Below, one piece after another: positions 7,622-58,930 of a stretch of 64,000 nt of DNA. Both the position numbers and the translations under genes were made by a program. This stretch comes from a virus. Position 1 is the first letter of the stretch, and the number at the start of each line of letters is the position of its first letter. The stretch is taken from the IMG/VR virus record IMGVR_UViG_3300029554_000001. The stretch is one strand, 5' to 3'. The notes under the pieces were generated by a model, which saw only the letters and a program-made list of their open reading frames with translations, was not told where the DNA came from and searched no databases.

Positions 7622-8587
7622 ATGGAACATACGAATTTTATGATGATGATTGGAGTTGTTGCAAGTGGTAAATCCACTCTTGCTCAAAATCTCAAAAATA
7701 TGCTGACTAAAATGGGTCAGCCTACAATGATTGTTTCATCGGATGAAATTCGTGAAACTGTTTTTGGAGATGTAAACGACCAGACTCATAATGACGAGGT
7801 TTTTAAGGAAGTTCGTCGCCGTATTAACAATTGCATTGATAAAATGAATGTTATTGTTGATGCAACTAATATTAATGTTAAATCTCGTAAGAGCTTGTTG
7901 GATATTGTTCGCAATAAGGAGAATGTTACTAAAGTAGCTTATGTTATGACTACTCCCGTTGCTGTTTGTAAAAGACAGAATAAAGCGAGAACTCGTACAG
8001 TTCCCGAAGAAGTTATTGACAGACAGATTGGCAAGTTTGAAATTCCTTTTTATGAAGAAGGTTTTGATACAATTAATTTAATTGGTTGGAATTTTAATCA
8101 GTTTGAAGTAATTGTCCCTCAGTCTAATTGGACTACTGATGATGATTATATTATGAGTTTGATGAAGGGCTTTGACCAGAAAACTTGTCATCATAAGTAC
8201 ACTTTAGATGAACATTGTAGAATTTGTGCCGAAGAAGTTGCTAAAAGAACTGATGATAAGATTCTTTATAGAGCTGCACAAATTCATGACTTAGGCAAGT
8301 TAACTACTGGACAGCCCAAGGAAGATGGTTCTGGAGATTATAGATATTATAGTCATCATAATGTAGGAACGTATGACCTTTTAGCAAATCTTGATTGTAT
8401 TGGATTTACTAACATGGACGATATCTTAAAATGTCTGTTTTATGTTAATTTTCATATGCTTCCATTCTTTCTTGAAACTGAAAAGTCTAAATCTAAATGG
8501 GAAAAGATTATGGGAAAAGAAAACCTTGATAAGCTTTTTTTGTTTAACGAATGCGATAAAATTGCAAGTGGGACTTCTGAAAAATAA
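7622..8587 (+). CDS. Polynucleotide kinase-like P-loop domain fused to an HD phosphohydrolase (RNA end-healing enzyme candidate)
   Basis: N-terminal GVVASGKST P-loop, SSDEIRE and DATN (Pnk/AAA_33-like). C-terminal HHKYTLDEHC...QIHDLGK...YYSHHNVG (HD motif). Sits directly upstream of the RNA ligase. Confidence 0.75.
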   Translation: MEHTNFMMMIGVVASGKSTLAQNLKNMLTKMGQPTMIVSSDEIRETVFGDVNDQTHNDEVFKEVRRRINNCIDKMNVIVDATNINVKSRKSLLDIVRNKENVTKVAYVMTTPVAVCKRQNKARTRTVPEEVIDRQIGKFEIPFYEEGFDTINLIGWNFNQFEVIVPQSNWTTDDDYIMSLMKGFDQKTCHHKYTLDEHCRICAEEVAKRTDDKILYRAAQIHDLGKLTTGQPKEDGSGDYRYYSHHNVGTYDLLANLDCIGFTNMDDILKCLFYVNFHMLPFFLETEKSKSKWEKIMGKENLDKLFLFNECDKIASGTSEK

Positions 8588-8622
8588 TTCAGAAGATAAA
8601 AATTAGTAAAGGAGAGTTTAAG

Positions 8623-9981
8623 ATGAATTTTCATTTTAAGAAAGAGTTTCTTTGGCATCCTCTTTATGAATATGTTATGACTGTTAAAAGAAAGTATATT
8701 CAATCTTATACTCTCCTTAACAACGAACCTTGTCCTGAAAATTACAATTTTAATGATTGGCTCGACAGAATTTTTGAGGCGTGGGAGAATATTACTCCTA
8801 AACTTAATGAAAAGTTGAGTAAGATTTTTGACCCTCTTCAGATTACTTGTTATGACCATTATGTACTTTTTAAGTATAAAGGTTTTATTGAATTGTCTGA
8901 TGATTATGATTTAAATTCTTTTTTTGAATTATATGATGGTCTTTATAGGGAATGTCGTTCTTGTGTCTTTGATTTAAAGAATGACGAAATTGCTTTGGCT
9001 TCTTTGGCAAAGTTTAAGAATTATGGCGAGGATGATGGTGATTGGTCTCCTAAAAAAATTAGGTCTAAATATCATTTTGCTCATGCAGTTTTTATTACTA
9101 ATAAACTTGATGGTTCTTATCAGCAATATAGATATATTGCAGAGGAAGACAGAATTTTAGGTTCTGGTTCTCAGGCATTAGACCCTGTAGAATCTTGGAG
9201 ACTTGCGGCGGGTTATAAACTTTTATCTGAGGGACAAAAAGAATTAATTAGGGATTACCCTGATTACACTTTTATTTTTGAATATATTTCTCCAAAAAAT
9301 CCCATTGTTGTTAAGTATGATGAATCTCAAGAAGGATTGTATTTACTTGCGGCAAGGGATGTTAAGGATGGCAAGGAAGTTTCTTTTGATATTCTTAGTG
9401 ACATGGCTGAGGAATATGATTCTAAAATGACTCAATGGTATTATAATGCTACTTTGTTTAGTGTTTTAGCCGATACCGATAATTATCTTTCTTCTGAAAA
9501 AGAAGGTTGGGTAGTTGATATGGTTGATGGATATAAAAATCATTTTAGATGCAAAATTAAAACATCAGATTATGTCTTGATACATAAAGCATTATCTAAA
9601 AATATATCTCCTAACGCAGTTATTAATGCTATTCATGAAGATAGATTTGATGACTTTTTAGCAAAGTGTCCTGAAGCGTATAGAGAATTAATTATGCAGT
9701 ATTATAATACTGTTCATGAATATCTTAATCTTTATAAAGAGCTTATTGATAAAATTTTAATTAAAGGAAATGCAGAATGTGTAGATTTTTGGAATGATAA
9801 AAAAGAAGCAATGCTTTGGATGGATAAACTTCCCAAAGTGTTAAAGGGCAGAACAAAGACCAAATATCTTGGACAGGAAAATGATTTCTTGTTAAAGAGA
9901 CAGTTTTGCTATAAATATTCTGAAATTACAAAAGCCCTACACAATTTAAAGCGTTTTAAAAATTCTATGGTGGAAGGGTAA
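8623..9981 (+). CDS. RNA ligase, T4 Rnl1-like family
   Basis: Nucleotidyltransferase motifs: I NKLDGS, III FIFEYISPKNPIVVKY, IV EGWVVDM, V RCKIKTSDY. Confidence 0.8.
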   Translation: MNFHFKKEFLWHPLYEYVMTVKRKYIQSYTLLNNEPCPENYNFNDWLDRIFEAWENITPKLNEKLSKIFDPLQITCYDHYVLFKYKGFIELSDDYDLNSFFELYDGLYRECRSCVFDLKNDEIALASLAKFKNYGEDDGDWSPKKIRSKYHFAHAVFITNKLDGSYQQYRYIAEEDRILGSGSQALDPVESWRLAAGYKLLSEGQKELIRDYPDYTFIFEYISPKNPIVVKYDESQEGLYLLAARDVKDGKEVSFDILSDMAEEYDSKMTQWYYNATLFSVLADTDNYLSSEKEGWVVDMVDGYKNHFRCKIKTSDYVLIHKALSKNISPNAVINAIHEDRFDDFLAKCPEAYRELIMQYYNTVHEYLNLYKELIDKILIKGNAECVDFWNDKKEAMLWMDKLPKVLKGRTKTKYLGQENDFLLKRQFCYKYSEITKALHNLKRFKNSMVEG

Positions 9982-27024: not shown

Positions 27025-28284
27025 ATGGAATATTGTAAATATCTTATTTTAGTAGACCCTAATAATAATGGGGTTGATTCAAATAAATTCTACAAAATGG
27101 CTGGAAATGGTGATGATACGTTTACTGTAGAATTTGGTCGTGTTGGTGCCACTCCTCAGACTAAAACTTATCCTATGTCTAAATGGAATTCTACTCTTGC
27201 CTCTAAGTTGAAGAAGGGATATGTTGACCGTTCTGATTTGATGCAGGAAGTTATTGCTGATTCCAAAATTGAGGATAAGTCTAATGGAGTAGATGAATTT
27301 AGTTTGGTTCAAAACCTATCTGTCCGAGAGATTGTTAAACGTCTTTGGGATTATGCTAATAAGACTATTCAATCTGCTTATTCTGTTCGTGCTGAAGCTG
27401 TTACTCAGGCTATGATTGATGCTGCTCAGGAAAAGATTGACTATATTGCAGCGAATTACAAAAACTGGTCTGTTGAGGAATTTAACAAGAATTTAAATGA
27501 GTTGTTCATTATTGTCCCTCGTAAGATGAAGCGTGTTTCTGACTGTCTTGTTTCTGATTCTTCTGAATACGACAAAAAGCTTTCTGAGGAACAAAGCTTG
27601 CTTGATACTATGGCTGGTCAGGTTTATAAGCCAAAGGCGAGAATTGTTGATGCTGGTTCTGAAATTAAGGCTTCTGAAAGTATTTTACAGAAGATGGGTA
27701 TTACCATGGAAGAAGCTACTCAGGAAGATATTGCTAAAATTAAAAAGGCAATGGGGGATTCTGCTGGAAAGTTTTACAAGGCTTGGCGTGTTACTAATCT
27801 TGAGACTGAAGAAAGATATCAGAAATTTACTTCAGAAAATAATATTGGTAATGTAAAATTATTCTGCCATGGTAGCCGAAATCAGAATTGGTTTAACATT
27901 CTTAAGATGGGTTTAAAGATTCGCCCCGCAGGAGTTATTACAACAGGTTTGATGTTTGGAAAGGGCGCCTATTTCTCGAATAGTGAGAAGTATCATGGAG
28001 GGGTAGCCAAATCTATTGGTTATACTTCTTTAGGTGGATATTGGACTCGTGATTATCAGAATTGCGGCTTTATTGCTTTCTTTGATGTGGCTATTGGAGA
28101 TAGTGTTGATGCCTATTCTTTTGATTCTAAGTATTATTCTTATAATCTTGAGAGGCTAAAAAAGGACAATCCTAAAGCTTGGAGTTTGTGGGCTCATGGC
28201 AATACTTCTATGCTTCGCAACGATGAAATTATCGTTTACGATGATAGACAAATGACTATTCGATATTTAGTGGAGATTAGATAA
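27025..28284 (+). CDS. WGR domain + PARP catalytic domain protein
   Basis: N-terminal KFYKMAGNGDDTFTVEFGRVGA (WGR). C-terminal H-Y-E signature: LFCHGSRNQNW, GKGAYFS, NDEIIVYD. Confidence 0.8.
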   Translation: MEYCKYLILVDPNNNGVDSNKFYKMAGNGDDTFTVEFGRVGATPQTKTYPMSKWNSTLASKLKKGYVDRSDLMQEVIADSKIEDKSNGVDEFSLVQNLSVREIVKRLWDYANKTIQSAYSVRAEAVTQAMIDAAQEKIDYIAANYKNWSVEEFNKNLNELFIIVPRKMKRVSDCLVSDSSEYDKKLSEEQSLLDTMAGQVYKPKARIVDAGSEIKASESILQKMGITMEEATQEDIAKIKKAMGDSAGKFYKAWRVTNLETEERYQKFTSENNIGNVKLFCHGSRNQNWFNILKMGLKIRPAGVITTGLMFGKGAYFSNSEKYHGGVAKSIGYTSLGGYWTRDYQNCGFIAFFDVAIGDSVDAYSFDSKYYSYNLERLKKDNPKAWSLWAHGNTSMLRNDEIIVYDDRQMTIRYLVEIR

Positions 28285-29042: not shown

Positions 29043-29531
29043 ATGATTGGTGAAATGCAGACTGTTTCTAGCGTAACTTTTGGTATTCCTTCTGATTTTC
29101 CTTCTCTTGTAGACTCTGTTGTGGGTTCTCTTAAAAAGGGATATAGAGATTATTGTTTTACAAATAAGCAACTAAAAGAAATTATTGAAAAATGCCACGA
29201 GGCAAATGTAAGTTTTGCTTATCGTAAGCAGTTAGATGAAGATTACAAGATTGAATATATTGAACTTATTCCTTGTACTTTTTATTTCGCAGAAACAGTC
29301 GAGGAAAATAAAGTCGAAAACATTCAGGTAGCAATGGAAAATCTTCCTGTGGCATTAATTTTCTGTCCTAAAAATAATAAGACTGATATTACTATTGATG
29401 CTGATTATCAGGAAAAGAATGAAAAAAGGGCAAAGAGTTATAAGAAGCTTGCATATTTCGATGATGATGGTTGTCCAGTATATATTGAAGACCTTACGAG
29501 AATGAGAAAGGAAAAAGAAAATGGAGTATAA
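29043..29531 (+). CDS. Hypothetical protein
   Basis: 162-aa ORF; no family recognised. Confidence 0.6.
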   Translation: MIGEMQTVSSVTFGIPSDFPSLVDSVVGSLKKGYRDYCFTNKQLKEIIEKCHEANVSFAYRKQLDEDYKIEYIELIPCTFYFAETVEENKVENIQVAMENLPVALIFCPKNNKTDITIDADYQEKNEKRAKSYKKLAYFDDDGCPVYIEDLTRMRKEKENGV

Positions 29532-30354
29532 AACATTAGGCGATAGAATGAAAGGAGCTTACGAGAATAAATATCGCAATTATCTTCCTGAGAATCTTCC
29601 TGTTATTGTTAGGCTTGATGGGCAGCACTTTCATTCCTTCTGTCGTGGTATGAAGAAACCTTTTGACCCAATTTTTGTTAAAACTATGCAACAAACTATG
29701 CTTAAGCTCTGTGAAATTATTCCTAATGTTAAGTTTGGTTATGTTGAATCTGATGAAATTTCTCTTGTCATGATTCAAAGTGAAAGAAATTCTCAGCCTT
29801 GGTTTGATAATAATATTCAAAAGATTGTTAGTACATCTGCTGCGCTTTGCACTCTTTGGTTTAATAATTATTTTGCTGAGAATACTATTATTGATACAAC
29901 TTTGGATATCTTTAATATGGACCAAGATTCTTATGATTGGCGAATGGTTCGTAAGGGAAAAGAAATGCCTACTTTTGATAGTAGAGTATTTGTTGTCCCT
30001 GCCTTTGAAGTGCATAATTATTTTGTTTGGAGACAGCAGGATTGTACTCGAAATTCTATTCAGGCAGTTGCTCAATCTTTGTATCCTCAAAAAGAACTTC
30101 ATGGTATTAACACTACTAAATTGCAGGATAAGATGTTTACTGAAAAGGGTGTAAATTGGAACGATTATACGACAGTAGAGAAACGTGGTACTTGTGCTTA
30201 TCGTGTTCCTACTACTGTTATTGGCAAAGATGGTCAGGAGGCTATTCGTTATAAATGGGTTCTTGATTATGAAATGCCGATTTTAACAAGTGAAGAGGGT
30301 AAAAACTTTATTAGTCAAAAGGTATTTACCAATGAGTTTATTCAAAAATCCTGA
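29521..30354 (+). CDS. Thg1-like protein (tRNA-His guanylyltransferase family 3'-5' nucleotidyltransferase)
   Basis: IVRLDGQHFHSF, KPFD, GYVESDEISLV, FDSRVFVVP....YFVWRQQDCTRNS and EKRGT align with the Thg1/TLP signature blocks. Confidence 0.85.
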   Translation: MEYKTLGDRMKGAYENKYRNYLPENLPVIVRLDGQHFHSFCRGMKKPFDPIFVKTMQQTMLKLCEIIPNVKFGYVESDEISLVMIQSERNSQPWFDNNIQKIVSTSAALCTLWFNNYFAENTIIDTTLDIFNMDQDSYDWRMVRKGKEMPTFDSRVFVVPAFEVHNYFVWRQQDCTRNSIQAVAQSLYPQKELHGINTTKLQDKMFTEKGVNWNDYTTVEKRGTCAYRVPTTVIGKDGQEAIRYKWVLDYEMPILTSEEGKNFISQKVFTNEFIQKS

Positions 30355-30748: not shown

Positions 30749-30817
30749 TATTAATCTATTGACAAAAAATTAAAATTGTGCTATATTATTTTTATAAAAA
30801 GAAAGGAGATAAATCCA

Positions 30818-31345
30818 ATGCAGTTTCAAGTTATGAGTCGTAGAGATTGTGTTAAGTATAGTTATGGTTCTCATGAAGAATCTTCTATTGTAATTAGCAT
30901 TAACGATTCTGCCGATATTGGAGTGCGTCAACTTCCTAACAAGTTTAATAATATTAAAGCGCAATTATCTCTCTTTTTTGATGATATTCAGCCATATAGA
31001 GGTATGAAATACTGGAAGAAAGATGAAGGCGTAATTATAGAAAATTATACAAACGCAGATGGGTTTGTATATGAGTCTCGCATGTATCAGCTTATGACTG
31101 AAAAAGATGCTAAGAAAATTATTGGTTTTGTCAATAAATGGTATAATAAAGTAGATAAGATTATTGTTCATTGTAATGCTGGTATTAGTCGTTCTTCTGG
31201 AGTTTGTGCTGGTATTATGAAATGTTTTACTGGGGATGATAGCCAGATTTATGATAATCCGTATTATCATCCAAATACTTTGTGTTATAATCTTATTTTA
31301 AATGAATATTACAAGGAAGGAGGAAAAAGCAATGGAGAGGATTAA
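30818..31345 (+). CDS. Cys-based phosphatase (PTP/dual-specificity-like, HCX5R)
   Basis: IVHCNAGISRSSG active-site loop. RBS AAAGGAG before ATG 30818. Promoter TTGACA..TATATT upstream. Confidence 0.7.
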   Translation: MQFQVMSRRDCVKYSYGSHEESSIVISINDSADIGVRQLPNKFNNIKAQLSLFFDDIQPYRGMKYWKKDEGVIIENYTNADGFVYESRMYQLMTEKDAKKIIGFVNKWYNKVDKIIVHCNAGISRSSGVCAGIMKCFTGDDSQIYDNPYYHPNTLCYNLILNEYYKEGGKSNGED

Positions 31346-34090: not shown

Positions 34091-34564
34091 ATGTCAGTGT
34101 CTATTATTCAGGGAGATGTCCTTAAGACTTCGGCAAAGTATATTTGTCATCAGGTTAATACCTTTGGTGTAATGGGCGCTGGTGTTGCTCTTCAAATTAA
34201 GAAGAATTATCCTCATGTTTATTTGGAGTATAATAAGTTTTGTAGTTATCATACTCCTGAAGAGCTCTATGGTAAAGTTCTTCGAATTGAGGAAAATAAA
34301 GATAGAGTTTTCTTGAACATGTTTTCTCAGATTGGTATTGGTGGACCAAATGTAAACACCAATTATGAATATTTTCATGAATGTCTTCTTAAGATTCGTG
34401 AAATGATTCCTATTGGAGAAGAGATTGCTATGCCTTATATGATTGGGTGTGGTCTTGCTGGTGGAGATTGGTCTATTATTAGCGCAGATATTTCTGATAC
34501 TTTAGGACTAAGCCATATTGTACGTTTGTATGATTTTAATGGCGTGACTTCTGTGAAAAAGTAA
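34091..34564 (+). CDS. Macro domain protein (ADP-ribose binding/hydrolase)
   Basis: ICHQVNTFGVMGAGVALQIKKNYP and MPYMIGCGLAGGDW match the macro-domain signature. Confidence 0.8.
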   Translation: MSVSIIQGDVLKTSAKYICHQVNTFGVMGAGVALQIKKNYPHVYLEYNKFCSYHTPEELYGKVLRIEENKDRVFLNMFSQIGIGGPNVNTNYEYFHECLLKIREMIPIGEEIAMPYMIGCGLAGGDWSIISADISDTLGLSHIVRLYDFNGVTSVKK

Positions 34565-36797: not shown

Positions 36798-36921
36798 GTT
36801 GACACTCACAGCAAATTTATTTTATGTTTTTGGAATAACGTCGTGTAAGGTTCGACTCCTTATTAACAAATCCCTTGAGCAAGGAATAGTTAACCGTGGA
36901 TGGCTAGAAAAAAGTGTCAAG
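36798..36921 (+). ncRNA. ACAGCAA-stem module A (T-arm plus capped-hairpin payload)
   Basis: 5' G-TTGACACT-C-ACAGCAA ... AGTGTCAA-G 3' (8 bp, compensated variant of TAGAC/GTCTA). Payload is the T-arm TAAGG-TTCGACT-CCTTA (36846-36862) then the capped helix TTAAC...GTTAA. Confidence 0.7.
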
Positions 36922-37265: not shown

Positions 37266-37400
37266 GTAACCACGATACCGCCTTGAAAAAGGTCGTGGAG
37301 GTTCGCCTAACAGATGGAGTATCGCTTAATGTTAGGATGTGTATATGGCGCACCTAAGTTCAGACCGTTCAGAACCTACAACCATATTAGCGGTGACAGC

Positions 37401-37501
37401 TTGGAGAGACAGCAAATATGCGGCAACTGGTGTAATAATAAAAGTAGCCATGGACAATACTTTTATTATGTTTGGAGTTCGATTCTTCGATGCCGCTCCA
37501 A
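37401..37501 (+). ncRNA. ACAGCAA-led atypical tRNA-like RNA (module variant B)
   Basis: TTGGAG-AG-ACAGCAA-ATAT, then acceptor GCGGCAA/ATGCCGC, a 12-bp hairpin ATAATAAAAGTA/TACTTTTATTAT (loop GCCATGGACAA), T-arm TGGAG-TTCGATT-CTTCG, and T-CCA. The leader TTGGAG pairs with CTCCAA, overlapping the CCA. Confidence 0.5.
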
Positions 37502-38931: not shown

Positions 38932-38960
38932 TTGACATCTTAAAGATGATATGCTATAAT
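38932..38960 (+). promoter_or_regulatory. sigma70-like promoter (extended -10) driving an RNA cluster
   Basis: TTGACA, 17 nt spacer, TGcTATAAT. Confidence 0.65.
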
Positions 38961-38992: not shown

Positions 38993-39109
38993 GTAGACTC
39001 TTACAGCAAATTTTCTAAAGGATAACACAATTGTCTTGAAAACAATCATTAGCGAGTTCGATTCTCGTCAGAGGGCGCTCTGTGGTGAATAATACGCAAA
39101 AGAGTCTAG
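38993..39109 (+). ncRNA. ACAGCAA-stem module 1 (anticodon-arm mimic, T-arm and capped helix)
   Basis: G-TAGACTCT-T-ACAGCAA ... AGAGTCTA-G. Payload is ATTGT-CTTGAAA-ACAAT (39030-39046; same loop as tRNA-Ser-TGA), T-arm GCGAG-TTCGATT-CTCGT, and the capped helix CAGAG-GGCG-CTCTG. Confidence 0.7.
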
Positions 39110-39370: not shown

Positions 39371-39504
39371 GTAGAGACTAACAGCAATTTTAAAATTATG
39401 TTAAAAAACCAAGCTCCCATTCTTCGGTTCGAATCCGAACGTCTTCAGTTGAAGTATGTAGCCAAGTGGTTTAAGGCAGGAGCCCATAATAACAATGTCT
39501 CTAG
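39371..39504 (+). ncRNA. ACAGCAA-stem module 2 carrying a circularly permuted tRNA-Gln-like body
   Basis: G-TAGAGAC-TA-ACAGCAA ... GTCTCTA-G. Internal order: GCTCC, var CATTC, T-arm TTCGG-TTCGAAT-CCGAA, acceptor 3' CGTCTTC, cap AGTTG, acceptor 5' AAGTATG, TA, D-arm GCC-AAGTGGTTTAA-GGC, A, GGAGC. Confidence 0.7.
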
Positions 39505-39511
39505 TATTTAT

Positions 39512-39588
39512 GCCCGTGTAGCTCAGTTGGTAGAAGCATTTGCCTTTTAAGCAAAGGGTCGAGAGTTCGAGTCTCTCCACGAGCACCA
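39512..39588 (+). tRNA. tRNA-Lys (anticodon TTT)
   Basis: GCCCGTG/CACGAGC (C3.A70 mismatch), TTTGC-CTTTTAA-GCAAA, GAGAG-TTCGAGT-CTCTC, ACCA. Confidence 0.85.
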
Positions 39589-39604
39589 AAAGCATTAGTA
39601 CATT

Positions 39605-39669
39605 GTAGACGCTTACAGCAATTTTAATTGTACTTATCTGTTAAATAAGAATACACAAAAAGCGTCTAG
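39605..39669 (+). ncRNA. ACAGCAA-stem module 3 (65 nt; bare anticodon-stem-loop mimic, GUU loop)
   Basis: G-TAGACGCT-T-ACAGCAA ... AGCGTCTA-G. The apical hairpin CTTAT-CTGTTAA-ATAAG (39633-39649) has the same 7-nt loop as tRNA-Asn at 40971. Confidence 0.7.
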
Positions 39670-39696
39670 CCCCTTTCTAAAGGAGAACAATTAAAT

Positions 39697-39781
39697 GGGT
39701 GAGTAGTGAATCGGCAAACACGCTTGACTGTAAATCAAGTTCCTGACGGAGTAGAAGGGTCGGCACCTTCCTCACCCACCA
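39697..39781 (+). tRNA. tRNA-Tyr (anticodon GTA), class II, unusual T-loop
   Basis: GGGTGAG/CTCACCC, CTTGA-CTGTAAA-TCAAG, long variable arm, T-arm GAAGG-GTCGGCA-CCTTC (G replaces T54), ACCA. Confidence 0.8.
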
Positions 39782-39807
39782 ATTTAAAATTTAAAGGAGA
39801 AAATATT

Positions 39808-39978
39808 ATGGGTTTTATGGGAGAAATTTCAGAAAATATTGGTTGGAATGATTGTATTAATTATCTTCTAAAAAATGTTGATAAATTTCAATCAACTTTA
39901 GAAGGTGGAGCTTATGATTATTTTCCAAATGATGAAATTAAAGAAATTTTAAAGAATTTAATTAGACCGGAAATCTAA
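39808..39978 (+). CDS. Hypothetical small protein
   Basis: RBS AAAGGAG before ATG 39808. The upstream part of the track ORF overlaps tRNA-Tyr. Confidence 0.55.
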   Translation: MGFMGEISENIGWNDCINYLLKNVDKFQSTLEGGAYDYFPNDEIKEILKNLIRPEI

Positions 39979-40000
39979 TAAAATTTTTGTTTTAAAACTC

Positions 40001-40029
40001 TTGACAAAATGAAAATTTTATGCTATAGT
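40001..40029 (+). promoter_or_regulatory. sigma70-like promoter (extended -10)
   Basis: TTGACA, 17 nt spacer, TGcTATAGT. Confidence 0.65.
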
Positions 40030-40106
40030 AAAAATATGATAAAGATACAAATTTATTTGTAAGCTAATTGTTCATTTTTTATTGTTCATAAAAGCATTCC
40101 TTTCAA

Positions 40107-40237
40107 GTAGACTCTAACAGCAACTTTACAATCACAAATGCTAAGGACCTGTTTGTTGGAGGTTCGAATCCTTCACTCCCGACCATCGGGAGTTAGCTCA
40201 ACGGATAGAGCAACAGATTTTGTAAAAATGAGTCTAG
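40107..40237 (+). ncRNA. ACAGCAA-stem module 4 carrying a circularly permuted tRNA with encoded ACCA
   Basis: G-TAGACTC-TA-ACAGCAA ... GAGTCTA-G with a second helix TTTACAA/TTGTAAA. Internal order: CCTGT, TTGTT, T-arm GGAGG-TTCGAAT-CCTTC, acceptor 3' ACTCCCG, A-CCA-T, acceptor 5' CGGGAGT (perfect 7 bp), TA, D-arm GCTC-AACGGATA-GAGC, A, ACAGA. Confidence 0.75.
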
Positions 40238-40292: not shown

Positions 40293-40410
40293 GTAGACAC
40301 GTACAGCAAAATTACTTGATGCTTTAATGTGGAAAATTAACGATAAGGTTCGACTCCTTAATCTTCTTTAGAAGATGCGTGGTTGCTGGAAATCAAAAAA
40401 ACGTGTCTAG
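40293..40410 (+). ncRNA. ACAGCAA-stem module 5 (anticodon-arm mimic GGA, T-arm and capped helix)
   Basis: G-TAGACACG-T-ACAGCAA ... CGTGTCTA-G. Payload is TTAAT-GTGGAAA-ATTAA (40324-40340), T-arm TAAGG-TTCGACT-CCTTA (identical to module A), and ATCTTCT-TT-AGAAGAT. Confidence 0.7.
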
Positions 40411-41048: not shown

Positions 41049-41125
41049 AAGTGGAGGGTGTAGGTTCGAGTCCTGCCCTGCTCGTGGGAAACCCTTGCAG
41101 GAAGCTGCTAGGTACAGCGCCACTT
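41049..41125 (+). ncRNA. Circularly permuted tRNA-like domain (no ACAGCAA stem)
   Basis: Closing stem AAGTGG/CCACTT. Order: var AGGGT, T-arm GTAGG-TTCGAGT-CCTGC, capped helix CCTGC...GCAGG, AA, D-arm-like GCTG-CTAGGTA-CAGC, G. Starts 1 nt after the CCA of tRNA-Asn. Confidence 0.5.
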
Positions 41126-41399: not shown

Positions 41400-41475
41400 G
41401 CTTTGGTAGCTCAATTGGTAGAGCAGTGGACTGAAAATCCACGTGTAGCCAGTTCGATTCTGGCCTAAAGCACCA
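41400..41475 (+). tRNA. tRNA-Phe (anticodon GAA)
   Basis: GCTTTGG/CTAAAGC, GTGGA-CTGAAAA-TCCAC, GCCAG-TTCGATT-CTGGC, ACCA. Confidence 0.9.
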
Positions 41476-41476
41476 T

Positions 41477-41560
41477 TGCTGGCGAGTGAAACGGATATAT
41501 AAATCACGCTTGGCTCATACCCAAGTAATAGTGGGTTCGACTCCCATGCTTCAGCAACCA
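41477..41560 (+). tRNA. tRNA with CAT anticodon (Met or Ile2), irregular acceptor/T junction and oversized D-loop
   Basis: CTTGG-CTCATAC-CCAAG is a perfect anticodon arm. T-arm GTGGG-TTCGACT-CCCAT. Acceptor TGCTGGC/TTCAGCA has 2 extra nt (GC) after the T-stem. ACCA. Confidence 0.55.
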
Positions 41561-41584
41561 AAAAATAAAAGGAAGTAAATTCTA

Positions 41585-41893
41585 ATGACTATTAATTTTA
41601 AGATTTACATTTATTAGACAGCAAATAATAAAAAGTTTGTTTATAGATGTCCTCATTGTAATAAAGGGATAATGCAAGTAGCAGAAACTAAAACTGCTAA
41701 AGATGAAACTAATTTTTTATCTTGGAATTATACTTGCCCAGTTTGTAAGAAGCAGATTGTCTCTATTGAAAAAGACGGTTGTTCTTCTTTTAAAAGTGTG
41801 TTCCCTCCAATGACTCAAATTAGTGATAAAGAATTTACTGATATTAAAAAGGATGTAGGAGAGAAGGGTATTTATCTATTCTCTGAAACATAA
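41585..41893 (+). CDS. Zn-ribbon protein (1 in-frame TAG)
   Basis: ATG 41585 and TAG 41615 are in frame with the track ORF at 41672. CPHC...CPVC. Confidence 0.55.
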
Positions 41894-43950: not shown

Positions 43951-44110
43951 AGGGGTGTAGCCAAGCGGTAAGGCAAGGGACTTTCAAGAATTAATTCAAG
44001 TAGAATCCAGTGGATTAGTTTAAAGACTGTTTCGACGGTATATTGGTTCAAGTCCAATATTCTTGACCAGACTCCCTGACTCGAAGGTTCAAATCCTTCC
44101 ATCCCTGCCA
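43951..44110 (+). tRNA. tRNA-Gln (anticodon TTG) interrupted by a 85-nt tRNA-like insert
   Basis: AGGGGTG/CATCCCT, Gln-type D-arm GCC-AAGCGGTAA-GGC, anticodon stem AGGGA (43976-80)/TCCCT (44073-77), GAAGG-TTCAAAT-CCTTC, G73, CCA. Loop halves CTTT (43981-84) and GAC (44070-72) sum to CTTTGAC. Confidence 0.75.
43985..44069 (+). tRNA. Nested tRNA-like gene inside the tRNA-Gln anticodon loop
   Basis: Perfect acceptor CAAGAAT/ATTCTTG, TA, D-arm ATTC-AAGTA-GAAT, stem CAGT/ACTG with a 14-nt loop, T-arm ATTGG-TTCAAGT-CCAAT, then A-CCA. Confidence 0.6.
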
Positions 44111-44139: not shown

Positions 44140-44284
44140 GTAGACGCTTACAGCAAACAATAATAAAATCAAATTCTAGTAAAAAAGATATAAATTAATA
44201 TTTAAAAAAGATTTTGGGTATTGTTCCTTGCTAATTAGTTTATGATGCTTTCATGATTCTCCTTTGTTAGTATTATGCGTCTAG
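44140..44284 (+). ncRNA. ACAGCAA-stem module 6 (AT-rich ~120-nt payload)
   Basis: G-TAGACGC-TT-ACAGCAA ... GCGTCTA-G. Confidence 0.6.
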
Positions 44285-44414: not shown

Positions 44415-44479
44415 GTAAACCCTTACAGCAATTTAACTACTTAATTTTTGCTTGAAAAAAGATTATGGATAGGGTTTAG
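44415..44479 (+). ncRNA. ACAGCAA-stem module 7 (65 nt)
   Basis: G-TAAACCCT-T-ACAGCAA ... AGGGTTTA-G (G>A in the 5' strand compensated by C>T in the 3' strand). U/A-stem hairpin containing the CTTGAAA string (44451-57). Confidence 0.65.
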
Positions 44480-44495: not shown

Positions 44496-44585
44496 GTAGA
44501 CACTAACAGCAATTTTAAAAAGTATTCTATATATATATTAAAATGCCAAAATTTAATTGTACATATTAACTTTTAAAGTGTCTAG
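44496..44585 (+). ncRNA. ACAGCAA-stem module 8 (AT-rich payload)
   Basis: G-TAGACACT-A-ACAGCAA ... AGTGTCTA-G. Confidence 0.6.
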
Positions 44586-44595
44586 GATTTTATAT

Positions 44596-44731
44596 AGGAC
44601 GGTAGCTTAATCGGTTTAAGCCTCCGACTTATCTGAGAGTAGTTTAAAAGTAAAACTGTTAATGTAAGTGCAAGACTTGCCTTTCAGACCAAATCGGAAG
44701 ATTGTGAGTTCGAGTCTCACCCGTCCCACCA
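44596..44731 (+). tRNA. tRNA-Ile (anticodon TAT) interrupted by a 59-nt minihelix insert
   Basis: AGGACGG/CCGTCCC (A1.C72 mismatch), D-arm GCTT..AAGC, anticodon stem TCCGA (44623-27)/TCGGA (44694-98), GTGAG-TTCGAGT-CTCAC, ACCA. Loop halves CTTAT (44628-32) and AA (44692-93) sum to CTTATAA. Confidence 0.75.
44633..44691 (+). ncRNA. Nested acceptor-stem/D-arm minihelix ending in ACCA
   Basis: CTGAGAG/CTTTCAG (7 bp, one G.U), TA, GTTT-AAAAGTA-AAAC, short hairpin, then A-CCA. Confidence 0.55.
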
Positions 44732-44749: not shown

Positions 44750-44819
44750 GTAGACTCTTACAGCGATTACTTAGAGACTTGTGATGTGGGATTACATATG
44801 TTTTGAAAAATGAGTCTAG
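44750..44819 (+). ncRNA. ACAGCAA-stem module 9 (loop variant ACAGCGA)
   Basis: G-TAGACTC-TT-ACAGCGA ... GAGTCTA-G with internal hairpin TGTGAT-GTGGG-ATTACA. Confidence 0.6.
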
Positions 44820-44934: not shown

Positions 44935-45005
44935 GCGGCGTAGTATAATGGTCAATGCGCACGGCTCTAACCCGTGAAATGCTCGTTCGATTCGAAGTCG
45001 CCGCT
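44935..45005 (+). tRNA. Candidate amber-suppressor tRNA (anticodon CTA)
   Basis: Perfect anticodon arm CACGG-CTCTAAC-CCGTG (44960-44976). Acceptor GCGGCG/CGCCGC, TA, D-arm GTA-TAATGGTCAA-TGC. T-loop TTCGATT with an imperfect stem GCTCG/CGAAG. No encoded CCA. Confidence 0.6.
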
Positions 45006-56609: not shown

Positions 56610-57080
56610 ATGGTTGATATTAAATGGCTTTAGACTCAAGAAGGATAGAAAGCTTATTAGACTTGGATAAGGAAATTAGCAAACCGAGCAGAAGATAGGA
56701 CAGATATTCCAATTTTAGTAGATACCAACGGAGAAATTTAGGTTTGGGTAACAATAAATAAAAAATATCTATCTAAAGAGCAATTTGAAAAACTTGCTGA
56801 TAAATCTGATGGTGAAATTACTACAAAATTAGAATTTAAAACAAAAGATATTATTATAAGAGAGCTTACTTCTATCGCAAAGAGCAGAGAGGCTTTAGCA
56901 GATAATGAAGATGAAAGAGAACTTTTATGTCCCCTTGTTTCATTGTTTCAAGGAATAGAAGATGCTATTACTAATGATATTTGCTATAAAGCTCAAAATG
57001 CTAAACAGCTTTTTATAAACAATTTCGAAAAAAATTTAGGAAAAAACGAAAATAATTCTAATAACCTCTTGACAAACTAA
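56610..57080 (+). CDS. Hypothetical protein (4 in-frame TAG)
   Basis: 156 codons from ATG 56610 to TAA 57078, with TAGs at 56631, 56646, 56658 and one further downstream. No other stop in frame. Confidence 0.55.
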
Positions 57081-57097
57081 GATACATCTGTTATAGT
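57069..57097 (+). promoter_or_regulatory. sigma70-like promoter for the module-10/Ro-like transcript
   Basis: TTGACA (57069-74), 17 nt spacer, TATAGT (57092-97). Confidence 0.65.
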
Positions 57098-57114: not shown

Positions 57115-57177
57115 GTTAGACTCTCACAGCAAACTACAAAAAACTTTTATTTTGGAAAAAGGACAAAAAGAGTCTAG
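57115..57177 (+). ncRNA. ACAGCAA-stem module 10, in the 5' leader of the Ro60-like gene
   Basis: GT-TAGACTCT-C-ACAGCAA (57117-57132) ... AGAGTCTA-G (57169-57177). Followed by the hairpin TCCTTT-AGA-AAAGGA (57178-57192), which includes the AAGGAG RBS. Confidence 0.65.
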
Positions 57178-57199: not shown

Positions 57200-58930
57200 A
57201 TGTATAACTACAACAATCCTAACAAGAAGAATAACACTAAGGCTTGGGCTCCTAAGCCTGAAAAGCCTGTTACTAAGTCCAACCGAGTTAGCCGTAAGGC
57301 TTCTTTCATGGACAAGGTTGAGAATACTGCCAAGGGCTACTACACTCAGGTTGCAATTCCTTCTCTTCCTGCTGATAAGCAGTACACTTCTAATGGTGCT
57401 ATTGCCTACAAGTCCTCTGGTTCTGCTCTTCTTGATATCAATACTTCCATTACCGCTCTTCGTAGTCTTCCTGATGGTAATATTGTGAAGAAGTTCCGTG
57501 CAGCTTATTCTGAGAATCCTCGTCTCGCTATTCGTTGGCTGTTCTATGCTGGCGATATCCGTGAGGGTCAGGGTGAGCGCCGTCTCTTCCAGATTTGCCT
57601 TAAGGATATGATGAACAATGGTGGTGCTCAGATTGTGGCGAACCTGATTCCTATGATTCCTGAGTATTCTCGTTGGGATTATATCTATGTTGTCATGGAT
57701 AATCCTACTACTAAGCCTGTTGTTCGTGAACTGATTCGTAAGCAGTGGAAGGAAGATATGGCTAATATGAAGAAGGGCAAGTCCATTAGCCTTATGGCGA
57801 AGTGGCTTGATAGTGCTTCTTCTCACAGCCATGATACTCGTAAGCGTGGTCTTAAGACTATGGATATGCTCGGTCTGACTGAACGTGAGTATCGTAAGGG
57901 GCTGTCTGCTCTCCGTAAGCACCTTGATGTTGTTGAGCGTAAGATGTCTTCTCAGAATTGGCAGAGCATTAATTACGAGACTGTTCCTTCTAAGGCAAAC
58001 CTTAATTACAACAAGGCTTTCCTTCGTAATGATGAGGAGCGCCGTCGTGCCTATTTGAACGCTCTTACTAAGGGCGAGGCAAAGATTAATTCTTCCGTAT
58101 CTAATCCTTGTGACATTGTTCACAAGTATTGCGAGAATGATTGGGGTACTTCTCCTCATTCTTATGATGCCGCCCTTGAAGGCATGTGGAAGGCTCTTCC
58201 CAATCTTGTAACCGATGATAGTTCCACTATTGTTGTTGCCGATGGTTCTGGTTCTATGTGTGCTACCGTGGGTCGTACTCGTATGACTGCTCTTGAGGTT
58301 GCTAACTCTCTTGCAATTTACTTTGCAGAGCGTGCTAAGGGTGCATACAAGGGTCGTTACATTACTTTCTCTGCACGTCCTCAGATGGTTAATGTTAATC
58401 ATGACTCTTTGCGTGCAAATCTTAGAGAAGCTGCTCGTCATAGTGAGGTTGCTAATACCAACCTTGAAGCAGTATTTGACCTGATTCTTGATACTGCAAT
58501 TAAGAATCATTCTCCTCAGAGTGATTTGCCTAAGAATATTCTGATTATCAGTGATGGTGGTTGGGATTCTATGGTAAATATCCGTAATGTTAGCACTGGC
58601 AGTAATGGTTACGGTGGTTATGGTTATTGGGGTTATAACAGCACTCGTGCTACTGCTAAGGAAGCTCCTGCTTTCCTTAAGTCCATTGAGCAGAAGTACA
58701 AGAACGCTTCCTATGAGTGTCCAAAAATTTGTTTTTGGAATGTGTGCGGAAATGGTAACACTAATAATGGTCTTCCTATGACCAAGAATGACTATGGTAT
58801 CATGGTCAGCGGGTTTAGTGTTCAAACTTTGAAAATGATTCTCAGTGGCAAGACTAATCCTTGGGATGCACTTATGGAAGTGGTCTTGGATAAGCGTTAT
58901 GACAAGATTGAGGAGCTTGCTTTTAAGTAA
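57200..58930 (+). CDS. Ro60-like protein: helical N-domain (DUF2828/TROVE-like) plus vWA domain with MIDAS
   Basis: GAIAYKSSGSALLD, ENPRLAIRWLFYAGDIREGQGERRLF, MIDAS VVADGSGSM. C-terminal ICFWNV...NNGLP...YGIMVSGFSVQTLKMI parallels Ro60 LIVCGM..NGF.IADP.DRGMLDMCGFDTGALDVI. Confidence 0.65.
   Translation: MYNYNNPNKKNNTKAWAPKPEKPVTKSNRVSRKASFMDKVENTAKGYYTQVAIPSLPADKQYTSNGAIAYKSSGSALLDINTSITALRSLPDGNIVKKFRAAYSENPRLAIRWLFYAGDIREGQGERRLFQICLKDMMNNGGAQIVANLIPMIPEYSRWDYIYVVMDNPTTKPVVRELIRKQWKEDMANMKKGKSISLMAKWLDSASSHSHDTRKRGLKTMDMLGLTEREYRKGLSALRKHLDVVERKMSSQNWQSINYETVPSKANLNYNKAFLRNDEERRRAYLNALTKGEAKINSSVSNPCDIVHKYCENDWGTSPHSYDAALEGMWKALPNLVTDDSSTIVVADGSGSMCATVGRTRMTALEVANSLAIYFAERAKGAYKGRYITFSARPQMVNVNHDSLRANLREAARHSEVANTNLEAVFDLILDTAIKNHSPQSDLPKNILIISDGGWDSMVNIRNVSTGSNGYGGYGYWGYNSTRATAKEAPAFLKSIEQKYKNASYECPKICFWNVCGNGNTNNGLPMTKNDYGIMVSGFSVQTLKMILSGKTNPWDALMEVVLDKRYDKIEELAFK

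What the first reader, a model, noticed from the sequence alone, without database searches (positions are those of the whole stretch)
39371..40237. Two modules carry circularly permuted tRNA bodies (acceptor stem capped, anticodon stem opened into the module stem)
**Module 4 (40107-40237).** Elements in 5' to 3' order:
- anticodon-stem 3' strand CCTGT
- 5-nt variable loop
- T-arm GGAGG-TTCGAAT-CCTTC
- acceptor 3' strand ACTCCCG
- A-CCA-T
- acceptor 5' strand CGGGAGT (perfect 7 bp)
- U8-A9
- D-arm GCTC-AACGGATA-GAGC
- A26
- anticodon-stem 5' strand ACAGA

This is a complete cloverleaf whose ends are in the anticodon loop. Its acceptor end is closed by a 5-nt cap that contains an encoded discriminator plus CCA.

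**Module 2 (39371-39504).**
- It has the same order with a tRNA-Gln-like D-arm (GCC-AAGTGGTTTAA-GGC) and variable loop (CATTC).
- The anticodon stem is GGAGC/GCTCC.
- The cap is AGTTG.
- The acceptor is 7 bp with two mismatches.

**How they connect to the module stem.** In both, a second helix (TTTACAA/TTGTAAA; TTATG/CATAA) links the opened anticodon stem to the ACAGCAA stem.

**Two readings**
- (a) Y-RNA-type tRNA mimics.
- (b) Genuine permuted tRNA genes that need RNase P plus 3' processing at the cap and ligation at the anticodon loop. To my knowledge this is known only in some algae and one archaeon.
Basis: seen in the sequence. Interest (0 to 1): 0.85.

Follow-up and report, generated by a model that had tools for sequence, protein, structure and literature searches.

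The report
Phage tRNA-mimic Y-like RNAs
The two "permuted tRNAs" are real, but they are most likely tRNA-shaped domains of small non-coding RNAs that partner a phage Ro60-like protein, and they belong to a widespread, apparently undescribed phage RNA family, not genes for working tRNAs.

Summary
Modules 2 (39371-39504) and 4 (40107-40237) each hold a complete tRNA body minus the anticodon loop, in the order V-loop, T-arm, capped acceptor, D-arm. ARAGORN calls both as tRNAs once re-ordered (0 of 1000 shuffles).

They are two of 11 same-strand modules sharing a frame: a covarying closing stem plus single-stranded ACAGCAA. One frame copy sits in the leader of a 576-aa DUF2828/vWA gene (57200-58930). 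That protein's ten best structural matches are all Ro60.

In 80 loci fetched by that protein, framed modules lie 173:8 on the gene's strand. In 64-68 of the 80 they lie just upstream of the gene. Unannotated copies flank the homologue in FelixO1, Listeria, Staphylococcus, Bacillus, Enterococcus, Campylobacter, Fusobacterium, Synechococcus and Mycobacterium phages.

Related phages carry the same RNA in normal tRNA order, with the acceptor open and the frame capped.

Reading (a), a Y-RNA-type (YrlA-like) mimic, is supported. Reading (b), a decoding permuted tRNA, is not, because no anticodon loop is encoded.

These RNAs differ from YrlA in their motif and protein partner and are missed by Rfam. 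Module 4's 7-bp acceptor plus ACCA-U cap suggests RNase P nicking. Binding and processing are inferred, not shown.

The parts
40107..40237 (+). Module 4: a framed ncRNA with a complete permuted tRNA body. Frame stem 40108-40114 / 40230-40236; ACAGCAA 40117-40123; linking helix 40125-40131 / 40220-40226; opened anticodon stem 40148-40152 / 40213-40217; T-arm 40158-40174; 7-bp acceptor hairpin 40175-40193 with cap ACCAT 40182-40186; D-arm 40196-40211.
   Evidence: YrlA 42.2 bits; R1 72.5 bits; this is a seed sequence.
39371..39504 (+). Module 2: a framed ncRNA with a permuted tRNA-Gln-like body. Frame stem 39372-39378 / 39497-39503; ACAGCAA 39381-39387; helix TTATG 39396-39400 / CATAA 39485-39489; GCTCC 39413-39417 / GGAGC 39479-39483; T-arm 39423-39439; bulged acceptor hairpin 39440-39458 with no CCA; D-arm 39461-39477.
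38993..39109 (+). Module 1: same frame. Payload is a pseudo-anticodon arm (ATTGT-CTTGAAA-ACAAT), a T-arm and a capped hairpin, in normal order.
   Evidence: The pseudo-anticodon triplet varies among close orthologues.
39605..39669 (+). Module 3: frame only (65 nt), no tRNA-like payload.
40293..40410 (+). Module 5: frame with a T-arm and a capped 6-bp hairpin.
36798..36921 (+). Module 0: variant frame (GTTGACACTC...GTGTCAAG) with a T-arm and a hairpin.
44140..44284 (+). Frame module, 145 nt, no tRNA-like payload.
44415..44479 (+). Frame module, 65 nt (variant TAAACC stem).
44496..44585 (+). Frame module, 90 nt.
44750..44819 (+). Frame module, 70 nt (motif variant ACAGCGA).
57116..57177 (+). Frame module in the 5' leader of the Ro60-like gene. 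It lies between the promoter and the ribosome-binding site and is a candidate autoregulatory site.
   Evidence: The same position holds in 64-68 of 80 related loci.
57200..58930 (+). Ro60-like protein gene (576 aa; DUF2828 + DUF7788 + vWA; PHROG 850 'RNA-binding protein'). This is the proposed protein partner of the frame.
   Evidence: top 10 Foldseek hits all Ro60; vWA_Ro60 in 11 of 32 homologues.
57069..57097 (+). Sigma-70-like promoter (TTGACA-17-TATAGT) driving the leader module and the Ro60-like gene.
   Evidence: Read directly from the sequence.
38932..38960 (+). Consensus promoter (TTGACA-17-TATAAT, with TG) upstream of module 1 - tRNA-Glu - module 2 - tRNA-Lys - module 3 - tRNA-Tyr.
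40001..40029 (+). Near-consensus promoter (TTGACA-17-TATAGT, with TG) upstream of module 4 - module 5 - tRNA-Leu.
7622..9981 (+). PNK-like kinase (7622-8587) and Rnl1-type RNA ligase (8623-9981). These are tRNA-repair context genes.
29521..30354 (+). Thg1-like tRNA 5'-end repair enzyme (tRNA-repair context).

Best explanation
Modules 2 and 4 are small non-coding RNAs of a Y-RNA-like family.

Each module is closed by a 7-9 bp terminal stem, followed on the 5' side by a single-stranded AC(A/U)GCAA motif. I call this stem plus motif the 'frame'. I infer that the frame is the binding site for the phage's own Ro60-like ring protein (DUF2828/vWA, 57200-58930). This mirrors how the terminal stem plus the GNCGAA/CGAA motif of Y and YrlA RNAs binds Ro60.

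The variable interior of each module is the payload. In modules 2 and 4 the payload is a tRNA mimic with a T-arm, D-arm and acceptor stem and intact elbow nucleotides, but no anticodon loop. As proposed for YrlA, such a domain can recruit or occupy tRNA-binding factors on the ribonucleoprotein. Candidates are RNase P, the CCA-adding enzyme, tRNA-modifying enzymes, the phage's Rnl1, PNK-like kinase and Thg1-like repair proteins, or host anti-phage tRNA nucleases.

The frame copy in the protein's own mRNA leader probably gives feedback control.

The permuted gene order probably arose by tandem duplication of normal-order units. Those units occur as arrays upstream of the gene in other phages, and the permuted caps look like the inter-unit spacers of those arrays.

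Module 4 has a perfect 7-bp acceptor plus A73-CCA-U, so it is probably nicked by RNase P and trimmed to a CCA end. That would give a two-piece tRNA-like RNA.

Shown here: the structure, the conservation and the co-occurrence. Inferred: protein binding, processing and biological role.
For: 1. Architecture. The order T-arm, capped acceptor, D-arm, closed by an opened anticodon stem and a terminal stem, is that of the Rfam YrlA model, which module 4 matches end to end. It is also the published description of YrlA (PMC4201824).

2. The frame. There are 11 copies on the + strand against 1.7 expected. The inner base pairs of the stem covary between copies.

3. The protein.
- The AF2 model's top 10 PDB matches are all Ro60, E 5e-7 to 2e-5, near full length, and include Thermus phage phiLo Ro60.
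- Eleven of 32 homologues hit Pfam vWA_Ro60.
- It belongs to PHROG 850, 'RNA-binding protein'.
- Homologues in cultured phages are annotated 'Ro-like RNA binding protein'.

4. Linkage.
- One frame copy lies in the gene's leader.
- In 80 loci fetched by the protein alone there are 173 modules on the gene's strand and 8 on the other.
- 64 of 80 loci (strict finder) or 68 of 80 (relaxed finder) have a module just upstream of the gene, against a 3.8% background.
- Loci found by the RNA motif alone contain the protein.
- No other window protein co-occurs comparably.

5. Breadth. Unannotated modules flank the homologue in FelixO1, Bacillus PK-3, Enterococcus EF1, Mycobacterium Rumpelstiltskin, Listeria LP-048, Staphylococcus S-CoN_Ph1, Campylobacter CP81, Fusobacterium Fnu1 and Synechococcus B23. 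KVP40 has the ACAGCAA motif in the gene's leader, but no closing stem was found there. FelixO1, PK-3 and Rumpelstiltskin also have permuted tRNA-like payloads.

6. Payload structure. 94% of cells are paired and 15 of 16 pairs change on both sides, while slid registers give 48% or less.

7. Normal-order homologues have paired acceptor stems and a capped frame.

8. Precedents. M. smegmatis YrlA, which has a 7-bp acceptor, is cut by RNase P and receives CCA in vivo (PMC4201824). Phage phiLo Ro60 binds two Y-like RNAs encoded upstream of its gene (PMC12135203).
Against: - There is no experimental evidence here for transcription, stability, protein binding or cleavage.
- Modules 2 and 4 lie 17-18 kb from the Ro60-like gene, not within the 4 kb typical of YrlA.
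- The protein gives no sequence hit to TROVE or to any PDB Ro60. The structural match rests on a medium-quality model (pLDDT 67, TM 0.31-0.39).
- The motif ACAGCAA differs from the GNCGAA Ro-binding motif.
- Module 4 is below the Rfam YrlA threshold (42 against 69 bits). Module 2 and the cultured-phage examples do not match YrlA at all.
- The covariation set was selected for hairpins, which is an ascertainment bias.
- My strict module finder required ACAGCAA, so that motif's invariance is partly circular. The variants TCAGCAA, ACUGCAA and ACAGCUA were, however, found independently.
Confidence: 0.72

Rival explanations
1. These are genuine permuted tRNA genes. The transcript is circularised or ligated across the anticodon region (for example by the phage Rnl1 and PNK-like kinase) and opened at the cap by RNase P and 3' trimming. 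The product would be a decoding tRNA (Gln-like for module 2).
For: - Both bodies are complete cloverleaves that ARAGORN accepts once re-ordered.
- Module 4 has a 7-bp acceptor plus an encoded ACCA.
- The phage encodes Rnl1, a PNK-like kinase and a Thg1-like enzyme.
- ARAGORN calls no tRNA-Gln in the window, and module 2 is Gln-like.
Against: - No anticodon loop is encoded. After the opened stem come CCAUAAU and UUUUGUA, which lack U33/R37 in register, and these pair into a conserved second helix.
- Joining the ends would leave a loop of more than 40 nt containing the frame.
- By inspection there is no bulge-helix-bulge motif.
- The identical frame encloses payloads with no tRNA features and sits in an mRNA leader.
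- Normal-order homologues carry 45-55 nt in place of the anticodon loop, and their pseudo-anticodon triplets vary freely between orthologues.
- Module 2 has a bulged acceptor and no CCA.
Confidence: 0.04
2. The frame is a generic RNA processing, stability or attenuation hairpin, such as an RNase III/E site or a 5' stabiliser, or it is bound by some other factor. It would punctuate tRNA-array transcripts and the Ro-like mRNA. The tRNA-like interiors would be decaying tRNA pseudogenes trapped between such hairpins, with no ribonucleoprotein involving the Ro60-like protein.
For: - Modules sit between tRNAs and immediately after strong promoters.
- Many modules have no recognisable payload.
- Binding to the protein is untested.
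Against: - A single-stranded heptamer conserved across phages of Actinobacteria, Firmicutes, Proteobacteria, Fusobacteria and Cyanobacteria argues for a specific, phage-encoded reader and not for host RNases.
- The motif tracks one protein family and no other.
- The tRNA-like payloads keep covarying stems and tertiary-contact nucleotides, which pseudogenes would not.
Confidence: 0.12
3. The tRNA-like RNAs act mainly on their own, as decoys or sponges for host tRNA-targeting defence nucleases or as substrates for tRNA enzymes. The Ro60-like protein would only stabilise or degrade them.
For: - Pseudo-anticodon loops (C-U-NNN-A-A) have freely varying triplets, which could reflect diversifying decoy specificity.
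- The genomic context is rich in tRNA-repair genes.
Against: - Modules 2 and 4 have no anticodon loop to bait anticodon nucleases.
- Many frame modules lack any tRNA-like part.
- This rival concerns the downstream role and does not conflict with the ribonucleoprotein model.
Confidence: 0.1

Closest known systems
YrlA (Rfam RF02553), bacterial and phage Y-RNA-like tRNA mimics bound by Ro60/Rsr (Chen et al. 2014, PMC4201824)
   Same: - Terminal 5'-3' stem with a conserved purine-rich motif just after its 5' strand.
- Interior tRNA-like domain in the same permuted order: V-loop, T-arm, capped acceptor stem, D-arm.
- Same strand as a Ro60-type gene, and several paralogous RNAs per genome.
- M. smegmatis YrlA, which has a 7-bp acceptor, is cut by RNase P and receives CCA, which parallels module 4's design.
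   Different: - The motif is AC(A/U)GCAA, not GNCGAAN0-1G.
- The partner protein is DUF2828/DUF7788 (no TROVE hit by sequence), not a TROVE Ro60.
- There are 11 modules per genome, dispersed in a tRNA array up to about 20 kb from the gene.
- Payloads are modular: none, T-arm only, normal-order, or permuted.
- CCA is encoded in several caps.
- Rfam's model scores module 4 below threshold and misses the rest.
Thermus phage phiLo Ro60 with Yrl1/Yrl2 (PMC12135203; PDB 9L5Y)
   Same: A phage-encoded Ro60-fold protein with small structured RNAs encoded directly upstream of its gene. It is the best structural match to the window protein.
   Different: - phiLo Ro60 is a recognisable Ro60 homologue.
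- Its RNAs carry a CGAA motif, and in the passages I read they are not described as tRNA-like.
- Only two RNAs were reported.
Permuted tRNA genes of Cyanidioschyzon merolae and other algae, and of Thermofilum pendens (from my own knowledge; also cited in PMC4090602, which was found but not read)
   Same: The 3' half (T-arm, acceptor 3' strand) lies upstream of the 5' half (acceptor 5' strand, D-arm), joined by a short linker at the acceptor end.
   Different: Those genes encode both halves of a normal anticodon loop and a bulge-helix-bulge junction. They are processed by the splicing endonuclease and ligase through a circular intermediate to give decoding tRNAs. None of this is present here.
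Two-piece (circularly permuted) tmRNA
   Same: A tRNA-like domain encoded in permuted order, cut at the acceptor end to give a two-piece RNA with a CCA terminus.
   Different: Here there is no tag reading frame or pseudoknots, ARAGORN finds no tmRNA, a full D-arm is present, and there is no SmpB-type context.

Membership tests
YrlA / Y RNA-like (RF02553) | tRNA-like domain in the order (V)-T arm-capped 'acceptor' stem-D arm, with conserved T-loop and D-loop nucleotides | tested here: met
   U8, A14, G18G19, A21, T54-C56, A58 and G53-C61 are all present. In module 4 the A15:U48 pair is possible.
YrlA / Y RNA-like (RF02553) | Score at or above the Rfam gathering threshold (69 bits) | tested here: not met
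   Module 4 scores 42.2 bits (E 1.3e-6). Module 2 gives no hit at E<=10. The Rumpelstiltskin and PK-3 modules give no hit at E<=1.
YrlA / Y RNA-like (RF02553) | GNCGAAN0-1G motif near the 5' end (the putative Ro60 contact) | tested here: not met
   AC(A/U)GCAA occupies the equivalent position: 5' side of the internal loop, directly after the terminal stem.
YrlA / Y RNA-like (RF02553) | Encoded within about 4 kb of a Ro60 (TROVE) orthologue, on the same strand | tested here: inconclusive
   The strand is the same and the genome is the same, but the distance is 17-18 kb for modules 2 and 4. Another frame copy lies 23 nt upstream of the gene. In relatives the modules abut the gene. The protein has the Ro60 fold and a vWA_Ro60 hit, but no TROVE hit.
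YrlA / Y RNA-like (RF02553) | Physical association with the Ro60 protein | not testable with these tools
   This needs EMSA, RIP or CLIP.
Permuted tRNA gene (algal/archaeal type) | 3' half upstream of 5' half, with the acceptor ends joined by a short linker | tested here: met
Permuted tRNA gene (algal/archaeal type) | The outer ends reconstitute a 7-nt anticodon loop (U33, anticodon, R37) when joined | tested here: not met
   The flanks form a second helix and the frame, and no loop-like sequence is in register.
Permuted tRNA gene (algal/archaeal type) | Bulge-helix-bulge junction and a splicing endonuclease | tested here: not met
   By inspection the termini form a continuous 7-9 bp helix without 3-nt bulges. 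No EndA-like gene was found among the ORFs scanned, but that scan was not exhaustive.
Permuted tRNA gene (algal/archaeal type) | A mature, aminoacylated, decoding tRNA product | not testable with these tools
   This needs tRNA-seq and charging assays.
Two-piece tmRNA | Tag-peptide reading frame and a tmRNA call | tested here: not met
   ARAGORN finds no tmRNA. The Rfam tmRNA_permuted model gives only a 13-bit chance hit elsewhere.
Ro60 (TROVE + vWA) protein family, for the partner protein | HEAT-repeat ring followed by a vWA domain | tested here: inconclusive
   The top 10 Foldseek hits are all Ro60 over more than 520 columns, and vWA_Ro60 is hit in 11 of 32 homologues. Against this, the model's pLDDT is 67, TM is 0.31-0.39, and there is no TROVE or PDB sequence hit.

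The most novel reading that the evidence does not exclude
The AC(A/U)GCAA-framed RNAs together with DUF2828 proteins may form a pan-phage ribonucleoprotein system. The protein is present in at least 695 cultured phage genomes, including FelixO1, KVP40, P100-like Listeria phages and cluster-L mycobacteriophages. In this system tRNA-derived RNAs exist in both circular permutations and are matured by the tRNA machinery to carry genuine CCA ends, and possibly amino acids. They might act as anticodon-less tRNA surrogates or decoys that protect or repair the translation apparatus against host tRNA-targeting defences.
Probability: 0.25. Interest if true: 0.85.

Novelty: new variant of a known kind. 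Interest (0 to 1): 0.68.

Why it matters
Ro60-Y RNA particles and tRNA-mimicking YrlA RNAs are known, including in a few phages. What was found here goes further:
- The large 'Ro-like / DUF2828 / PHROG 850' protein family has no described RNA partner in the literature I could search.
- That family appears to have a conserved, easily recognisable RNA ligand present in many model phages. There it sits in unannotated gaps, or is mis-annotated as tiny ORFs or as 'tRNA-Undet'.

This gives a direct, testable handle on what these proteins do. Binding assays, knock-outs in FelixO1, LeBron or P100, and RNase P and charging assays are all feasible.

It also shows one RNA architecture occurring naturally in two circular permutations. 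And it links the system to phage tRNA arrays and tRNA-repair genes, which bears on the open question of how phages counter host attacks on tRNA.

Tried and rejected
- Megablast of the 10-kb array against cultured phages found only a tRNA-Thr match, so there is no close cultured relative.
- Sequence searches of the protein and its profile against the PDB, and Pfam at E<=10, found no Ro60 or TROVE hit. Only fold comparison and the vWA_Ro60 model link it to Ro60.
- Rfam at gathering thresholds reports only tRNAs in the window.
- I first thought module 4 derives from tRNA-Pro, because of C1:G72 and A73. 
- My first D-arm regular expression found nothing because of a greedy-quantifier bug. This was fixed.
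- Many hits of covariance model R1 are not permuted modules. Some are junctions of adjacent canonical tRNAs, which is a known false-positive class (PMC4201824). Others are junctions of adjacent normal-order units. I separated these with ARAGORN.
- I considered reading the frame as a transposon-like terminal inverted repeat and rejected it, because the inner stem positions covary between copies instead of being identical.
- A relaxed frame finder has a high background (114 hits on the wrong strand). Counts from it are used only for the upstream-enrichment comparison.
Full report
**Context**

The window is an AT-rich (about 32% GC) phage fragment with every gene on the + strand.
- A tRNA array spans roughly 32-45 kb. 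ARAGORN tRNAs there, including a CTA suppressor. Rfam adds two tRNA hits with long inserts.
- No close cultured relative exists.
- About a dozen IMG/VR contigs of 110-220 kb are syntenic with the window.

**Observation**

Four independent tests show they are not chance.
- When each module's 5' half is placed before its 3' half and joined by any of four synthetic 7-nt loops, ARAGORN calls a tRNA in 8 of 8 constructs. With shuffled halves it of 1000.
- Rfam's YrlA model aligns to module 4 from end to end at 42.2 bits, E 1.3e-6 for 15 kb, which is below the 69-bit gathering threshold.
- Unconstrained folding recovers the closing stem, T-arm, capped acceptor and D-arm in both modules, with z = -3.3 and -2.4.
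- Both modules are conserved in 8-9 related contigs. Changes there fall in loops or are compensatory, for example CCTGT/ACAGA becoming TCTGT/ATAGA, and TTATG/CATAA becoming GTATG/CATAC.

Module 4 has no clear isotype.

**The frame**

Modules 2 and 4 are two of 11 + strand elements that share a frame (11 found, 1.7 expected).
- The 5' side reads G-(U)AGAC-nnn(n)-ACAGCAA.
- The 3' side is A-rich and ends nnn-GUCU(A/U)-G.
- The inner stem base pairs differ between copies but stay complementary.
- Interiors range from about 30 to 120 nt.
- Some have no tRNA features. Modules 0, 1 and 5 carry a T-arm plus a hairpin, and module 1 also has a pseudo-anticodon arm. Only modules 2 and 4 carry full permuted tRNA bodies.
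- Near-consensus promoters precede module 1 and module 4.

**The protein**

One frame copy (57116-57177) lies between a TTGACA-17-TATAGT promoter and the ribosome-binding site of a 576-aa ORF at 57200-58930. That ORF matches DUF2828, DUF7788 and vWA_2.
- It gives no sequence hit to any solved structure, and no TROVE hit.
- An AlphaFold model (pLDDT 67, pTM 0.52) has Ro60 as all ten of its best PDB matches. E-values run from 5e-7 to 2e-5 over 520-640 alignment columns, and Thermus phage phiLo Ro60 is first. TM-scores are modest, 0.31-0.39.
- Eleven of 32 homologues hit Pfam vWA_Ro60.
- The protein is in PHROG 850, 'RNA-binding protein', at E 2e-116.
- Of 50,697 cultured-phage records, 695 encode a homologue. 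It is annotated 'Ro-like RNA binding protein' in cluster-L mycobacteriophages.

**Frame and protein go together**

- Loci retrieved from IMG/VR by the 14-base RNA pattern alone included seven that encode the protein at 32-46% identity, next to the frame.
- Conversely, I fetched 80 loci by the protein alone, at 43-99% identity. A strict frame finder gave 173 modules on the gene's strand and 8 on the other.
- Of those 80 loci, 64 had a module ending within 600 nt upstream of the gene.
- A finder that tolerates G.U pairs gave 68 of 80, against 3.8% for random 400-nt windows in the same loci.
- Leaders missed by the strict finder carry variants, such as CGACCGAC-UCAGCAA...GCGGUCG, or GGGCAUA-AACAGCAA...UGUGUCC with G.U pairs.
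- No other window protein co-occurs comparably. The runners-up are RNA-repair genes.

In cultured phages, unannotated modules flank the homologue as follows.
- FelixO1 has four, one with a permuted tRNA-like payload.
- Bacillus PK-3 has five, two with permuted payloads.
- Enterococcus EF1 has one in the leader.
- Mycobacterium Rumpelstiltskin has three GUGGAC...ACAGCAA...GUCCAG modules after gp54, and the middle one is permuted tRNA-like.
- Listeria LP-048 has three in the leader, with an RtcB ligase gene nearby.
- Staphylococcus S-CoN_Ph1 has three, which are annotated as tiny ORFs.
- Campylobacter CP81, Fusobacterium Fnu1 and Synechococcus B23 also carry them. In B23 one unit is annotated 'tRNA-Undet'.
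- KVP40 has the motif in its leader, but no closing stem was found.

Rfam does not detect these.

**Payload structure and the un-permuted form**

Thirteen divergent permuted payloads align well.
- 94% of cells are paired.
- 15 of 16 pairs change on both sides.
- Slid registers give 48% pairing or less.
- Caveat: the set was chosen for having hairpins.

A covariance model built from this alignment (R1) finds many further hits, all on the gene's strand. On inspection, many are junctions between adjacent normal-order units with this layout:
- acceptor 5' strand, D-arm, N26 and a short stem;
- a capped hairpin, then (U)A-AC(A/U)GCAA-nUUUAc;
- a pseudo-anticodon loop, V-loop, T-arm and acceptor 3' strand;
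- N73, sometimes CCA, then a ...AUAU spacer.

These units form arrays of 2-3 that end at the gene start.

Going round the circle, the order of elements is identical to that of modules 2 and 4. Only the position of the ends differs: frame open and acceptor capped in the window, acceptor open and frame capped elsewhere.
- The segment ACAGCAACUUUACAA...AUGCU.GGA.C.GU is shared between module 4 and a normal-order unit of L162.
- The caps of permuted modules (ACCA-U, UCCA-UAU, GCCA-UUG, GCCA-UUUUU, CCCA-UAAU) resemble the inter-unit spacers of those arrays. This suggests permutation by tandem duplication.

**Interpretation**

Reading (a) fits published knowledge.
- YrlA RNAs have a terminal stem with a short motif contacted by Ro60, plus a T / acceptor-stem / D tRNA-like domain. 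They are encoded near Ro60 on the same strand, and occur in bacteria and some phages.
- M. smegmatis YrlA has a 7-bp acceptor, is cleaved by RNase P and receives CCA in vivo (PMC4201824).
- Phage phiLo Ro60 binds two Y-like RNAs encoded upstream of its gene and assembles with host PNPase (PMC12135203).

The present RNAs differ in four ways:
- the motif is AC(A/U)GCAA, not GNCGAA;
- the protein family is DUF2828;
- copy number is higher and payloads are modular;
- they exist in both permutations.

I found no description of an RNA partner for this protein family in the searchable literature.

Reading (b) fails on its key requirement, because no anticodon loop is encoded or reconstitutable.
- The frame also encloses non-tRNA payloads and sits in an mRNA leader.
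- Pseudo-anticodon triplets in related units vary freely between orthologues.

**Mechanism**

Shown here:
- the structure, its conservation and covariation;
- the linkage to the Ro60-like gene, including the leader position.

Inferred:
- the protein binds the stem plus AC(A/U)GCAA;
- the leader copy gives autoregulation;
- the tRNA-like domain engages tRNA-binding factors;
- module 4 is nicked by RNase P at ACCAU|C and trimmed to a CCA end.

The window also encodes Rnl1, a PNK-like kinase, a Thg1-like enzyme, and weaker Macro, DSP-phosphatase and nucleotidyltransferase matches. Other phages place PNK, RtcB or Rnl1 near the gene. This points to a role in tRNA damage and repair during infection, but the role itself is unproven.

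**Verdict**

- This is a new variant of a known kind. Its unexpected breadth across model phages makes it worth experimental follow-up.

Noticed in passing
window 43951-44107 and 44596-44728: Two tRNA genes (Rfam tRNA, 49 bits each) carry inserts of about 85 and 60 nt in the anticodon loop. The inserts are closed by 7-8 bp helices (TCAAGAAT/ATTCTTGA and CTGAGAG/CTTTCAG). They are far too short for group I introns. The first insert contains its own T-arm-like hairpin, and neither has an ACAGCAA motif. How they are processed is unknown.
   Followed up: partly
window 58997-60312 and 44935-45005: The ORF just downstream of the Ro60-like gene is a Zn-ribbon repeat protein with many in-frame TAG codons. 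A CTA-anticodon suppressor tRNA lies at 44935-45005. This implies amber read-through or recoding for at least this gene.
   Followed up: no
window 37389-37500: A degenerate normal-order tRNA-like unit: GCGGTGA...ACAGCAA (37409)...T-arm-like TGGAG-TTCGATT-CTTCG, then ATGCCGC-TCCA. The MFE fold pairs the two ends. It may be a twelfth family member, in the un-permuted orientation.
   Followed up: partly
window 41052-41122: A T-arm plus hairpins flanked by AAGTGG/CCACTT, directly after tRNA-Asn. It gives weak YrlA (22.8 bits) and R1 (23.3 bits) hits and has no ACAGCAA frame.
   Followed up: no
window 39040-39056 (module 1); L162, L154, L159, L173, L188, L161 units: Pseudo-anticodon loops keep the C-U-NNN-A-A pattern, but the triplet differs between close orthologues (UGA, GCA and GAA in module 1; UUU, UAU, GUU, UGU and GCU elsewhere). 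This could be neutral drift or diversifying selection on a decoy.
   Followed up: partly
L203 5424-5680 (Mycobacterium phage Rumpelstiltskin NC_023732, about 41420-41676): Three unannotated frame modules sit between gp54 ('RNA-binding protein') and a terminator. The middle one carries a permuted tRNA-like domain (R1 38.6 bits). This is a tractable system, because the LeBron homologue gp53 is moderately toxic when over-expressed (PMC13148394).
   Followed up: partly
L200 5713-6544 (Salmonella phage FelixO1 NC_005282, about 23872-24703): Four unannotated AAGACC...ACAGCAA...GGUCUG modules sit among the tRNAs just downstream of ORF42 ('RNA-binding protein'). The last one (L200 6422-6544) has a permuted tRNA-like payload.
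   Followed up: partly
L201 1296-3875 (Bacillus phage PK-3 ON881243): A stretch upstream of the DUF2828 gene with almost no annotation. It holds about 17 unannotated tRNAs (Rfam) interleaved with frame modules. One module is a permuted Gln-like body with the motif variant ACAGCUA.
   Followed up: partly
L205 4496-4702; L206 2797-2944; L209 4824-4933: Likely mis-annotations in public records. The Staphylococcus and Campylobacter phage modules overlap tiny 'hypothetical protein' CDSs. The Synechococcus phage B23 normal-order unit is annotated 'tRNA-Undet-???'.
   Followed up: no
window 27025-28284, 29521-30354, 30776-31345, 34091-34564, 14553-15368: Further genes that may act on RNA or NAD: a PARP-like protein with a WGR domain, a Thg1-like enzyme, a DSP-type phosphatase, a weak Macro match and a nucleotidyltransferase. 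They sit alongside Rnl1 and the PNK-like kinase at 7.6-10 kb.
   Followed up: partly
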